NCBI GenBank assembly: GCA_951406725.2
Contig: OX597840.1
Location: 33,480,001-33,544,000, forward strand
From: Octopus vulgaris
Lineage: Eukaryota
Reading direction: 5' to 3'
DNA: 64,000 bases
Below the pieces are notes generated by a model. It worked only from the letters and a program-made list of their open reading frames with translations. It did not search any database and was not told the origin of the DNA. The translations under genes were made by a program, and so were the position numbers. This document shows positions 1 through 13,124 of this stretch, piece by piece (the stretch's first letter is position 1; every line of letters begins with the position of its first letter).

Positions 1-1013
1 ATACATACATACATACATACATACATACATATTTACGACAATCTTGTTTCAGTTTCTGTCTATCAAATCTATTCTCCACTCGGAAGGTTTTGGTGGGCTC
101 GAGATACTTGCTGAAGGTGCCAATCAGTGTGACTGAACCCGTATCCATTTAGGTGAGAAGTATGTTGATGGTATTAAAAAACTTTTATGAAGGTTTTTTT
201 TAGGTTTCATCCAAATTTGATGCACCTTAATGAACCAGTTTTCAAGCCCTCACATCATGACGTCACTGTGATAATTCTTAAAGGGGATTCTTTTAGGTGC
301 AAACGTGGCTGTGTGGTAAGAAGCTTGCTTCTCAACGACATAGATCCGGGTTCAATTCTAATTTGTGGCTCCTGTGTCCTCTTGTATTATGTAAAAATAA
401 AATAAAATAAAAGTGAAAAGCAATTCTGTATTTAAGGGAGACCTGCACAAAAGGGAGGCTGTTGTTAACAACAGAAGTGGTTAGAGCTGGCGGTGGTGAC
501 TCTGGTGGTGGTGGTGGTAGTGGTGGTGGTGGTGGTAGTGGTGGTGGTGGTGGTGGTGGATACGGTGCACTGAGGTGTGATGGGTGGTGTTGTTCTTATG
601 ATAGTGGTGATGGTGGTGGTGGTGGTTGTCACTGTCGTGTTGACGCTCTGGTGGTGGAGGTGGTGCTGGAATGGTGCCGCCTACTTTAGTATTTGCTGAA
701 GCAGTTTGGAACGTGTGTGTGCCTGCCTCTGTGTGATGTGTGTGTGTGTGTGTACGTGTGTGTGTACGTGTGTGTGTGTGTGTGTGTGTGCGTGCGTGTG
801 TGCTGTTAGTTCCGAATTGGTATTTTATCCATTCATTCTTGGAGCAGATGTTTCTTCCTTAGTAATGAAGAATTTAGGGTTTCTTTCTACTATGAAATTC
901 TTTCTTACTTTTCAGTCAAAGTACTAAAAGACTTATTTAGTATCCTTTTGGTCATTTCTACAAGTTTGGTAGTCAGTATGGTTGGTTGGTATTGGTATCT
1001 TGGCTTTAGTATC

Positions 1014-1134
1014 GATCTGGTGTCGCTACGATGGTCAAACAGTAGTGTCCACTCATTGGTCAAACTGACCATTGCATGCCTCTGGTTTTCCCAATGACCT
1101 AAGCACAGTTCTTAGTACTTCAGTGGGCGTGACA
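1014..1134 (+). promoter_or_regulatory. Conserved array core: ERE-like palindrome GGTCAaacTGACC (1058-1070), two CCAAT boxes, GGGCGTG GC box
   Basis: Motifs read directly; the palindrome is intact in all 8 units. Regulatory function is inference only. Confidence 0.3.
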
Positions 1135-4100
1135 TTCCAGTTGAAAACAGAAATAAGGAGAGACTTTTAACCGAGATTTGGTAGCACTAGTTTCTCGAGG
1201 GAGTAGATTGCAATACTTTTCGTTCTTTCTTTTCATTTCTGTCATTAGGCTGCGGCCTTGCTGGGGCAGTATCTTGAACAGATTGAAGTCAAATTAATCG
1301 ACCCCAGTAGTTTTTTTAGTGTTAAACCTGGTTCGTATTCTGTCATTTACTTTTGCCGAACCTCTAAGTTACGGGACGTAAACACACTAACACAGGCCGT
1401 CAAGTGGTTGTGGAAGAATAACAAAAACAGAATGACACATATTCATACATACACACACACACTCATACATACACGCACGTACACTCGGATATGGACCACA
1501 CGCACGAGCGCGTATATCTATACGTACATTGCATACATACACACACACATACATACATACATACATACATACATACATACACACACACACACACACACAC
1601 ACACACACACATACATATATATATATATATATATATATATATATATATATATATATATATATATATTTATACATATTTACGACAATCCTGTTTCAGTTTC
1701 TGTCTATCAAATCTATTCTCTACTCGAAAGGTTTTGTTTGTCTCGAGATACTTGCCGAAGGTGCCAATCAGTGCGACTGAACCCGTAACCATTCAGATGG
1801 GAAGCAAGTTCATAGAATTAGAAAACTTTTATGGGGTTTTTTTAGGTTCCATCCAAATTTTATGTACCAAATGACCCAGTTTTCAAGCCATCACGTCATG
1901 ACGTCACTGTGATAATTCTTAAAGGGGATTATTTTAGGTGCAAGCGTGGCTTTGTGGTAAGAAGCTTGCTTCTCAATGACATGGATCCGAGTTCAATTCT
2001 AATTTGTGGCTCCTGTGTCCTCTTGTATTATGTAAAGAAATAAAATAAAAGTGAAAAGCAATTCTGTATTTAAGGGAGACCTGCACAAAAGGGGGAGGCT
2101 GTTGTTAACAACAGAAGTGGTTAGAGCTGGCGGTGGTGACTCTGGTGGTTGTGGTGGTGGTGGTGGGTACGGTGCGCTTAGGTGGAGCGGGGTGGTGCGT
2201 GGTGTTTATATGGTAGTGGTAGTGGTGGTGATGGTGGTAGTCGGTGTCGTGTTGAAGTTTGGGTGGTGGAGGTGATTCTTTAGAATTTGCTGAAACAGTT
2301 TGGAACGTTTGTGTGTCTGCGTTTGTGTGTGTGTGTGTGTGTGTGTGTGTGTGTGTGTGTGTGTGTGTGTGTGTGTGTGTGTGTCTGTGTGTGTGTGTGT
2401 GTGTGTGTGTGTGTGTGCACTGTTAGTTCCGGACTGGTATCCATTCTTATAGCAGAAGAGCGATCAAGAATTTAGTGTTTCTTTCTACTATGAAATTCTT
2501 TCTTACTTTTCAGTCAAAGTACTAAAAGACTTATTAGTATCCTTTTGGTCATTTCTACAAGTTTGGAAGTCAGTATGGTTGGTTGGTATTGGTATCTTGG
2601 CTTTAGTATCGATCTGGTGTCGCTACGATGGTCAAACAGTAGTGTCCACTCATTGGTCAAACTGACCATTGCATGCCTCTGGTTTTCCCAATGACCTAAG
2701 CACAGTTCTTAGTACTTTAGTGGGCGTGACATTCCAGTTGAAAACAGAAATAAGGAGAGACTTTTAACCGAGATTTGGTAGCACTAGTTTCTCGAGGGAG
2801 TAGATTGCAATACTTTTCGTTCTTTCTTTTCATTTCTGTCATTAGGCTGCGGCCTTGCTGGGGCAGTACCTTAAACAGATTTAAGTCAAATTAATCAACT
2901 CCAGTACTTTTTTAGTGTTAAAACTGGTTCGTATTCTGTCATTTACTTTTGCCGAACCTCTAAGTTACGGGGACGAAAACACACTAACACAGGCCGTCAA
3001 GTGGTTGTGGAAAAAAAGCAAAAACAGAATGACACACACACTCACACATACACGCACGTACACTCCGATATAGACCACACGCGCGAGCGTACATTGCATA
3101 CATACATACATTGCATACATACATAAATACATACATACATACATACATACATACATACATACATTCATGCATACATACATACATATATATATATATATAT
3201 ATATATATATATATATATATATATATATATATATATATATATATACATATATATATACTACCATTTCAACCACTGGTCATTCGAACACATAATACAGTTA
3301 AAAACAATCACGTGGATTCTGTTGAGACCAGTAAGAAACAATTATGAACTTTTTTATTACACTTAACTTTTTGAAATATTTTTGATAAGGTTCGTTTTTT
3401 TTCAAGAAGAACCGAAACATGTAAAATCTCTAAGAAAATTAAATTTTATCTTATATAATGGCGTTTTCAAACTTCTTTTTTATAAATATATACCCACTCG
3501 TATACCACCTACACTTATATATATATATATACATACATACATACATAATTACGACAATCTTGTTTCAGTTTCTCTCTATCAAATCTTATTCTCTACTCGG
3601 AAGGTTTTGGTTGACTCGAGATACTTGCCGAAGGTGCCAATCAGTGTGACTGAACCCGTAACCATTCAGGTAGGAAGCATGTTGGTAGAATAAAAAAGAA
3701 CTTTTATGAGTGAAAAGCAATTCTGTATTTAAGGGAGACCTGCAAAAAGGGAGGCTGTTGTTAACAACAGAAGTGGTTAGGGTGGTGGTGGTGGAGGTGG
3801 TGGTGGTTGTGGTGGGGTGGTGGAGGTGGTGATGGATACGGTGCACTGAGGTGTGGCGGAGGTGATGGGTGGGGTTCATGTGGTAGTGGTGGCGGTCGGT
3901 GTCGTGTTGAAGGTTGGGCGGTGGAGATGGTGCTGGAACGGTGCCGCCTACTGAAGCAGTTTGGAACGCGTGCGTGCCTGCCTCACTGTGTGATGTGTGT
4001 GTGTATGTGTACGTGTGTGTGTGTGTGTGTGTGTGTGTGTGTGTGTGTGTGTGTGTGTGTGTGTGTGTGTGTGTGTGTGTGTGTACTGTTAGTTCCGAAT

Positions 4101-11490: not shown

Positions 11491-11874
11491 TATATATATA
11501 TATATATATACACACACACACATATATATATATATATACATACATACATATATATATTTATGCATACATATATAAATATATATATTTACAATGAGCTTCT
11601 TTCAGCAAGCGTCTATCAAATCCATTCTCTACTTACAAGGGTTTGTGGTTGACTCGAATCTATAGCTGGGGTTACCTGCCGAAGGTGCCGATTAATGGGA
11701 CCGAACCCGTAACCATTTTGTTGGGAAGCAAGTTGATAACATTAATAGAAAAAAAACATTTAATCGTTTCTTTTTAGGTTTTATTAAATGTGTTATGCAC
11801 CACGTGACCCAGTTTTCAGTCTTTCAAGATATGACGTCACTCCGTGTCAATTCTTAAAAGATATTATTATAGGT

Positions 11875-12295
11875 GAAGGCGTGGATGTGTGGTAAGAAGC
11901 TTGCTTCCCAACGGCATGGATCCGGATTCAGGCCCAGTCTGTAGCTCCTTGCACATATGTCTTTTTGCTATGTAAACTCGGACTGAAGAAAACCTGAGCG
12001 GATTTGGTTGACGGAAACTGAAATAAGCTAGTCGTGCATGTGTGTGTGTGTGTGTTTGTGTCTGTTGTCCCCCCACAGCAACCTGACGACTGGTGTTGGT
12101 GGGTTTACGTCCTTGTAAGAAAGCGGTTTAGCAAAAGAGGCTGACAGAGCAGGAACCAGGCTTAAGTAGCACACACACACACACACACACATACACACAA
12201 AAGGAATAGGATCGATTCCTTGGTCTAAATATTCTTTAAGGCTCTGCCCCAGCATGGCCGCAGTCTAATTACTGAACAAATAAAAGAATAAAAGA
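11875..12295 (+). mobile_element. SINE family A, diverged
   Basis: Head GGCGTGGATGTGTGGTAAGAAGCTTGCTTCCCAAC, body and CCAGCATGGCCGCAG tail. Confidence 0.78.
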
Positions 12296-13124
12296 GAAAA
12301 AAACAATTCTGCATTTAACGAAGATCTGCAGAAACGGCAGGCTTTGTTAATAAGGGAGAATGGTTAGGGCTGGCGGTGGTGATTCTGGTGTGTGGTGGTG
12401 CTGGTGGTGCTGGTGCTGGTGGTGGTGGTGGTGGTGGTGGTGGTCGCTGTCGTGTTGACGTTCGGGTGGTGGAGGTGGTGCTGGAATAGTGCCGCCTACT
12501 TTTTAGTATTTGCTGAAACACTTTGGAACGTCTGTGTGTCTGTGTTTGTGTAATGTGTGTGTGTACGTGTGTGTGTGTGTGTGTGTGTGTGTGTGTGTGT
12601 GTGTGTGTGTGTGTGTGTGTGTGTGTGTGTGTGTGTGTGTGCTGTTAGTTCCGAATTGGTATTTATCCATTCCTTCTTGGAGCAGATGTTTCCTTAGTAA
12701 TGAAGAATTTAGTGTTTCTACTATGAAATTCTTACTTTTCGCTAACAAGTACTAAAAGACTTTATCCTTTAAATCCATTTGTTGGTACCATTTTGGTTGG
12801 TAGTCAGTATTGGTATCTAGGCTTTAGTACAGATCTGGTGTCGCTACGGTGGTCAAATAGTAGTGTCCACTCATTGGTCAAACTGACCATTGCAAGTCTC
12901 CGTTTTTGCCAAGTCCTTAGTACTTTTGTGGGCGTGGCATTCGCAGAAGCATACAAATAAAAGTGTGTGTGTGTGTCTGTGTGTGTTGTATTTTTCCCGC
13001 ACCACTACTTAACAAATGGTGTTCGTGTGTTTATGTCCCTGTAACCTTATGGTTCGGCAAAGGAGACCGATGGAATAAGTATTTGGCTTTAAAATTTTCT
13101 GGGATAGATTCATCCGTCTGCAAA

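What the first reader, a model, noticed from the sequence alone, without database searches (positions are those of the whole stretch)
1..12960. Eight-unit tandem array with a near-invariant core carrying a perfect estrogen-response-element palindrome
Seen: GGTCAaacTGACC is intact at 1058, 2655, 4353, 5469, 7255, 8756, 10654 and 12876. It sits in a ~120-bp core with an overlapping reverse CCAAT, a second CCAAT, an extra TGGTCA half-site and GGGCGTG, while unit lengths and flanks vary through indels and insertions. Known: GGTCAnnnTGACC is the consensus ERE, and the Octopus estrogen receptor is a ligand-independent activator. Inference: an amplified enhancer/promoter or ncRNA gene array.
Basis: partly seen in the sequence, partly recalled or inferred. 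Interest (0 to 1): 0.7.

Follow-up and report, generated by a model that had tools for sequence, protein, structure and literature searches.

The report
Hidden 14-copy octopus micropeptide gene array
What looked like repeated estrogen-receptor binding sites in a likely octopus genome is a 14-copy array whose shared 81-base core changes mostly at silent codon positions, so each copy is likely a tiny gene for a short peptide with no relative found, and the 'hormone element' is likely just its first five codons.

Summary
The palindrome is at all 8 stated positions, and the array has 14 copies: 6 lie upstream of the window and 2 of those are inverted. No further copy was found in the 2.8-Gb assembly. 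The 79-bp core is indel-free and 3-9 times less divergent than its flanks (pi 0.036 vs 0.09-0.27). The estrogen-element reading is not supported. On the minus strand an ATG in a strong start context lies near the edge of the core and opens MVSLTNEWTLLFDHRSDTRSILKPRYQ. Of 16 distinct changes among the copies, 10 are synonymous (4.6 expected; six-frame-corrected P 0.003-0.044 depending on block limits). Synonymous sites diverge like the flanks (0.139); non-synonymous sites diverge nine times less (0.015). The palindrome is codons 1-5, lacks the 15-bp consensus flanks, and one public run carries a silent change that breaks it. Best reading: a birth-and-death array of orphan small-ORF genes with a constrained 27-residue N-terminus and a free tail; one copy has a nonsense mutation. 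No homologue was found. Expression, gene ends and peptide function are unproven.

The parts
905..1072 (-). Copy c07 small ORF, 55 aa (conserved codons 1-27 = 992-1072; the palindrome at 1058-1070 is codons 1-5)
2514..2669 (-). Copy c08 small ORF, 51 aa (conserved part 2589-2669)
4191..4367 (-). Copy c09 small ORF, 58 aa, R15P (conserved part 4287-4367)
5265..5483 (-). Copy c10 small ORF, 72 aa, R15C (conserved part 5403-5483)
7189..7269 (-). Copy c11, codon 8 is TGA (7 aa): likely pseudogene copy
8606..8770 (-). Copy c12 small ORF, 54 aa (conserved part 8690-8770)
10504..10668 (-). Copy c13 small ORF, 54 aa (conserved part 10588-10668)
12804..12890 (-). Copy c14 small ORF, 28 aa, I21V (conserved part 12810-12890); last unit of the array
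1081..1133 (-). Block upstream of the ATG (shown for c07; present in all 14 copies) with CCAAT and GGGCGTG: candidate promoter or 5' leader, moderately conserved (pi 0.113)
   Evidence: role inferred
804..991 (-). Unconstrained tail and 3' blocks F2/F1 (shown for c07): indel-rich; holds a donor-like AAA|GTAAGA in 7 of 14 copies
32..803 (.). Rest of one repeat unit (c07): fragments of genome-wide dispersed repeats, block D, GGT and TG microsatellites; divergent, partly lost in other units
1..12960 (.). Window part of the array (8 of 14 copies). The other six ATGs lie at G000:C27:33,462,940(+), 33,469,053(+), 33,473,929(-), 33,475,361(-), 33,477,748(-), 33,479,137(-)

Best explanation
The array holds 14 copies of an 81-base ATG-initiated reading frame whose differences are mostly silent, so each unit is likely a small protein-coding gene, read on the minus strand in the window, that would make a 28-72 residue peptide of which only the first 27 residues are under selection. 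Shown: the copies, the indel-free frame, the synonymous excess, one nonsense copy, mosaic flanks. Inferred: transcription from the GC-box/CCAAT block upstream of the ATG; translation from the GCA-ATG-G start; growth of the array by an inverted duplication and then unequal crossing-over between flanking repeats and microsatellites, with birth and death of copies, giving dosage. Inferred with low confidence: the peptide shows no hydrophobic signal or membrane stretch by eye and has a weakly predicted helix at residues 5-16, so it most likely acts inside the cell as a short binding helix. The ERE-like palindrome is a by-product of the codons ATG GTC AGT TTG ACC.
For: 16 distinct derived alleles in codons 1-27, of which 10 are synonymous against a null mean of 4.6 (P 0.0016-0.0034 for the frame; 0.009-0.013 for any of six frames). 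They include first-position silent changes AGA/CGA and CTA/TTA. Mean pS 0.139 matches flank divergence; pN is 0.015. The result survives a frame-blind maximal gap-free block (11 of 23, six-frame P 0.020), codons 1-23 only, removal of c09-c11, and window copies only (frame P 0.002-0.008). None of 13 flank segments reaches P below 0.10 in its best frame. GCA-ATG-G is present in 14 of 14 copies; the chance of such a start with 27 open codons near a block end is about 0.02 (0.25 without the context). Run X3 has one further allele, window 10654 G>T, in one contig of depth 9.2. By the sequence this is ACC>ACA (silent), it breaks the palindrome, and it is Leu>Phe in the plus-strand frame; adding it gives 11 of 17, six-frame P 0.003.
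Against: The test rests on 16-23 alleles. With the block limits I drew before seeing the frame, the best-frame P is only 0.038, or 0.044 six-frame-corrected for near-identical limits. Constraint stops at codon 27-28 with neither a shared stop nor a shared splice donor; tails run 28-72 aa and shift frame. No poly(A) signal lies at a shared position on the ORF strand. Six non-silent changes exist, including a stop, R15P, R15C and L11Q. The plus-strand frame that shares third positions is also open in all 14 copies with 8 of 16 silent. No homologue supports the peptide, and the fold model is low-confidence (mean pLDDT 53). The X3 allele is a single contig. Transcription and translation are untested.
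Confidence: 0.6

Rival explanations
1. The core is an amplified cis-regulatory module (ERE plus CCAAT boxes plus GC box), and the codon pattern is chance.
For: 13-bp palindrome intact in 14 of 14 assembly copies, with its only change in the spacer; GGGCGTG 14 of 14; each CCAAT 13 of 14. Mollusc ERs bind EREs and the Octopus ER is constitutive (PMC2529310).
Against: Synonymous excess in one ATG frame. The rest of the core is as conserved as the palindrome, and its longest invariant run (15 bp) lies outside it. 15-bp flanks are non-consensus in 14 of 14. The motif is common and not enriched genome-wide (1,779 vs 3,598). An X3 allele breaks it. The nearest non-transposon Pfam exon found is about 167 kb away (subset of ORFs). 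Caveat: only about 2.3 silent sites lie in the half-sites, so a double role is not excluded.
Confidence: 0.12
2. The copies are alternative first coding exons of one larger gene, spliced to shared downstream exons (UGT1A/protocadherin-like layout).
For: ATG-initiated constrained stretch. Donor-like AAA|GTAAGA in 7 of 14 copies, phase 2 in 5, with the ORF open up to it in c06, c07, c12 and c13. Unchecked AI notes report such layouts elsewhere in this genome.
Against: 7 of 14 copies lack the donor and 2 are inverted. Codons 28-53 are unconstrained and shift frame. No annotated longer protein carries this N-terminus. Only transposon domains or sub-threshold matches were found to the left in the ORFs scanned. 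Splicing to the acceptor-like site inside each unit (11 of 14 copies) would end the frame within a few codons, by the sequence.
Confidence: 0.1
3. The core is a plus-strand terminal coding exon (acceptor-like TTTAG, then IDLVSLRWSNSSVHSLVKLTIAC, stop, AATAAA).
For: Frame open across the core in 14 of 14 copies, 8 of 16 changes silent; AATAAA downstream in 7 of 14.
Against: P 0.06-0.24 for this frame in the permutation tests, as expected from sharing third positions with the minus frame. Its last codons and its stop vary. The X3 allele is non-silent here. No homologue.
Confidence: 0.06
4. A neutral local repeat whose core was recently homogenised by gene conversion.
For: Flanks are mosaic: c01 matches c04 in block F1 (0.01) but c02/c03 in block H (0.00), so exchange between copies occurs. 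No homologue of any kind was found.
Against: Conversion would flatten silent and non-silent sites alike, yet pS 0.139 equals the flank level while pN is 0.015. 0 indels against about 7 expected. Most core alleles are private to single copies.
Confidence: 0.09
5. A structured non-coding RNA (microRNA, snoRNA, ribozyme) gene array.
For: The palindrome can form a small hairpin. Block D, outside the core, folds strongly in two copies (z -6.7 and -4.3).
Against: Core folds have z between -1.5 and +1.0 on both strands (4 copies x 5 windows). No Rfam match to the core; no tRNA. Block D is divergent (pi 0.175) and has no conserved long-stem consensus.
Confidence: 0.03

Closest known systems
Small-ORF (smORF) micropeptide genes, e.g. 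Drosophila tarsal-less (PMC1852585; abstract and section list seen)
   Same: Very short ORF in DNA that looks non-coding; repeated copies of a short peptide, probably unsecreted.
   Different: tarsal-less has 11-aa ORFs on one polycistronic RNA and is ancient. Here 28-72 aa ORFs sit in separate units 1.1-6 kb apart, two inverted; only the N-terminal 27 residues are constrained; no sequence similarity was found; expression is not shown.
Estrogen response element, 13-bp GGTCAnnnTGACC / 15-bp AGGTCAnnnTGACCT (PMC2853111, passages)
   Same: Perfect 13-bp core in 14 of 14 copies.
   Different: Outer bases are T/A, not A/T; no excess conservation over the rest of the core; coincides with codons 1-5. 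The paper counts 2,310 perfect cores in the human genome and only 51 among 646 EREs at its bound loci, so a match alone says little.
Variable-first-exon loci (UGT1A, clustered protocadherins; recalled, plus unchecked notes)
   Same: Tandem ATG-initiated cassettes, each with promoter-like motifs.
   Different: No donor shared by all copies, two copies inverted, near-identical rather than diversified cassettes, no constant exons found.

Membership tests
Estrogen response element | 13-bp core GGTCAnnnTGACC | tested here: met
   14 of 14 copies
Estrogen response element | 15-bp consensus flanks A...T | tested here: not met
   T...A in 14 of 14; PMC2853111 notes these positions are less conserved
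Estrogen response element | Half-sites conserved beyond their surroundings | tested here: inconclusive
   0 alleles in 10 half-site bases in the assembly, but the whole core is similarly conserved; one breaking allele in run X3
Estrogen response element | Receptor binding and enhancer activity | not testable with these tools
   needs EMSA, ChIP or reporter
smORF micropeptide gene | ATG-initiated ORF under 100 codons in good start context | tested here: met
   13 of 14 copies 28-72 aa, 1 with a stop at codon 8; GCA-ATG-G in 14 of 14
smORF micropeptide gene | Purifying selection on the peptide | tested here: met
   10 of 16 silent, pN/pS about 0.11, six-frame P 0.003-0.044
smORF micropeptide gene | Shared 3' end signal (stop, poly(A) site) | tested here: not met
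   no common stop; AATAAA/ATTAAA within 1.5 kb in 11 of 14 but at unrelated positions
smORF micropeptide gene | Transcription and translation shown | not testable with these tools
   only assembled contigs were available; no stranded reads or Ribo-seq
Variable-first-exon locus | Splice donor in one phase in every cassette | tested here: not met
   7 of 14; phase 2 in 5, phase 1 in 2
Variable-first-exon locus | All cassettes on one strand ahead of constant exons | tested here: not met
   2 of 14 inverted; no constant exon among the ORFs scanned
Structured ncRNA (miRNA/snoRNA/tRNA) | Family match or stable conserved fold | tested here: not met
Dispersed transposon or SINE domain | Many interspersed copies | tested here: not met
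   14 matches, all within 30 kb; the tool warns that DNA-search counts are lower bounds

The most novel reading that the evidence does not exclude
An octopod-specific micropeptide family amplified to 14 copies, in which the first five codons double as a functional response element, so that the ligand-independent octopus estrogen receptor binds on the start codon and sets the output of the whole array: one sequence read both as protein code and as a nuclear-receptor site.
Probability: 0.07. Interest if true: 0.75.

Novelty: new member of a known kind. Interest (0 to 1): 0.45.

Why it matters
If real, this is an unannotated, lineage-restricted peptide family hidden in repeat-like DNA and kept in up to 13 open copies by selection on just 27 residues while the tail drifts freely. 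It would give a defined, cheap target (RT-PCR, Ribo-seq, targeted mass spectrometry) for asking whether cephalopods use amplified micropeptides. It also shows that comparing copies within an array can expose small genes that annotation misses, and it is a caution against reading perfect ERE matches as enhancers. It does not yet touch a known pathway, so the interest is moderate.

Tried and rejected
Expression: no RNA holder listed for window:880-1200. Two runs guessed to be RNA were laid, X4 and X13; neither had contigs on the core. Only 2 of 21 RNA-guess runs were laid, all as contigs, so this is no evidence either way.

Homologues, none found: 5.8-billion-protein word search for the c13 ORF at 29-95 aa and 96-2000 aa and for the plus-strand frame at 71-2000 aa; phmmer on 1.84 billion representatives, 0 at E<=0.001; PDB; ESM Atlas, no usable hit; Pfam, only sub-threshold E 0.14 and 0.27; metagenome contigs, 0 of 594 pattern hits confirmed. 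Viral contigs were not searched.

Literature: three 8-residue pieces of the peptide, 0 papers. Topic searches (listings only) showed nothing on this locus. One octopus genome paper was not held. Supplements were not read and could hold gene models.

A weak second-chromosome hit (C2:73.742 Mb; E 9.3 and 2.1 in both frames) lies in a dispersed repeat end that looks Helitron-like (label recalled). The core profile does not hit it and a profile of that repeat hits none of the 14 cores: taken as chance.

A TGGTCA-rich dispersed repeat resembles bits of blocks F2/H only at E 0.3 or worse and the core at E 2 or worse: origin from it is not shown.

Recalled short-motif likenesses of the peptide (W-x-x-L autophagy-type motif, SILK phosphatase-docking motif, eIF4E N-terminal segment, p53-type helix) were not tested; 2 of the 6 non-silent changes hit the first two motifs. 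No complex prediction was run.

Neighbour scan was partial: 150 of 297 upstream ORFs; 70 of 438 left, 70 of 448 right and 10 window ORFs. Short exons would be missed.
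Full report
1. Observation. The palindrome GGTCAAACTGACC is at all eight stated positions. The window is G000:C27:33,480,001-33,544,000 of a 2.8-Gb assembly. The window cuts the array: six more copies lie upstream, the two outermost inverted, giving 14 within 30 kb. Two core patterns gave exactly these 14 matches genome-wide, and a core profile found no other copy in 544 kb around the locus. Spacing is 1.1-2.4 kb among the tandem copies and 4.9-6.1 kb at the inverted end.

2. Constraint is real. I cut one unit into 11 blocks and aligned every copy that held each block. 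The 79-bp core has pi 0.036 and no gap; the other ten blocks have pi 0.094-0.268 and 2-15 gap runs. Shuffling columns never gave so conserved a 79-column window (0 of 20,000), and about 7 indel runs were expected in 81 columns.

3. Not a structured RNA. Core folds on both strands are no more stable than shuffles (z -1.5 to +1.0). Rfam has no match to the core at E<=1 or at gathering score, and ARAGORN finds no tRNA.

4. The ERE reading. Mollusc ERs bind EREs and the Octopus ER is constitutive (PMC2529310, passages), so the idea was reasonable. But the 13-bp core occurs 1,779 times in this genome against 3,598 for the reversed control. All 14 copies have T/A at the outer positions where the 15-bp consensus has A/T (PMC2853111, passages). 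The longest invariant run in the core lies outside the palindrome.

5. A reading frame explains the pattern. Six-frame translation showed two open frames that share third positions. The minus-strand one begins with GCA-ATG-G in all 14 copies, 9-12 bases inside the edge I had drawn, and reads MVSLTNEWTLLFDHRSDTRSILKPRYQ. The palindrome is ATG GTC AGT TTG ACC. Counting each derived allele once, codons 1-27 hold 16 changes: 9 at third, 5 at first and 2 at second positions; 10 are silent, including AGA/CGA and CTA/TTA. Moving the same base changes to random sites gives 4.6 silent on average (P 0.0016-0.0034; 0.009-0.013 over six frames). Mean pS is 0.139, the flank level, and pN is 0.015, so coding constraint accounts for all of the excess conservation.

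Sensitivity: the frame-blind maximal gap-free block gives a six-frame P of 0.020. The limits I drew first give a best-frame P of 0.038, or 0.044 six-frame-corrected for near-identical limits. Subsets of copies give frame P 0.001-0.008, and none of 13 flank segments falls below 0.10. Three public runs from two studies under three species labels hold the array; their kind is not on record and one may be the assembly's own source. Of the differences listed inside the ORF, three are alleles already in the assembly and one is new (10654 G>T, run X3, one contig, depth 9.2). By the sequence it is silent in the minus frame, non-silent in the plus frame and breaks the palindrome.

6. What does not fit. 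After codon 27-28 the copies diverge by indels of any length; ORFs end after 28-72 residues and c11 stops at codon 8. A donor-like AAA|GTAAGA is present in 7 of 14 copies, with the frame open up to it in four. An acceptor-like site follows the CA repeat in 11 of 14, but would end the frame within a few codons, and there is no shared poly(A) signal. The gene's 3' structure is therefore unresolved. No homologue was found in any library. The single-sequence model has mean pLDDT 53 with a helix at 5-16. The nearest non-transposon exons found are a rhodopsin-type GPCR about 167 kb and an M16C peptidase about 245 kb to the right; to the left only transposon domains or sub-threshold matches were seen, in partial scans.

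7. Mechanism. Shown: a 14-copy array, an indel-free ATG frame with a synonymous excess, one nonsense copy, and mosaic flanks (c01 is like c04 on one side and like c02/c03 on the other). Inferred: an inverted duplication, then tandem expansion by unequal exchange between flanking repeats, with selection keeping the first 27 residues; transcription from the GC-box/CCAAT block; an intracellular peptide acting through a short helix, with copy number setting dose. I put this at 0.6. Rivals: regulatory module 0.12, alternative first exons 0.10, neutral conversion 0.09, plus-strand exon 0.06, ncRNA 0.03.

8. Known and new. It works like a smORF gene (compare tarsal-less, PMC1852585, abstract) but belongs to no family that I could find. 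It fails the tests for a variable-first-exon locus and for a dispersed element. The claim that it is not in print rests (listings only; most subscription papers are not searched and supplements were not read).

Noticed in passing
window 8120-8195 (+), also 12298-12372 and 415-490: Block D folds into a ~60-nt hairpin in two copies (z -6.7 and -4.3) but not in a third (z -0.6); found only in the array, with no conserved consensus fold across 11 copies. Looks like a decaying inverted repeat.
   Followed up: partly
window 5966-6036 (+): Hammerhead HH9-like match (31 bits, E 1.6e-4, below the gathering score of 52) inside an insertion between copies c10 and c11.
   Followed up: no
window 27599-32981 (-): Apparently intact LINE: 1,149-aa frame with endonuclease, reverse transcriptase and zf-RVT domains, preceded by a 503-aa frame without a Pfam match.
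   Followed up: partly
window 55004-55195 (+): Isolated fragment of the 3' end of eukaryotic 18S rRNA (95.5 bits).
   Followed up: no
window 19614-20536: Five tandem copies of a 184-bp unit at 98% identity.
   Followed up: no
window 13124-13504: 11-bp minisatellite, 35 copies, right after the last array unit.
   Followed up: no
L019:3190-3610 and L020:4680-5225: Block F1 is itself repeated four times beside copies c01 and c04, marking these two as the outer arms of an inverted duplication.
   Followed up: partly
window 34900-47900: Abundant TGGTCA/TGACCA-rich dispersed repeat with a quasi-palindromic AGTACTAA...TTAGTA segment; the ninth ERE match at 42737 lies in it.
   Followed up: partly
window 23057-23437 (-): Mariner/Mos1-type transposase HTH remnant.
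   Followed up: no
L079:5942-6208 (-); L087:4521-9991 (-): Rhodopsin-family GPCR exon and three M16C-associated peptidase exons, the nearest non-transposon coding matches found.
   Followed up: no
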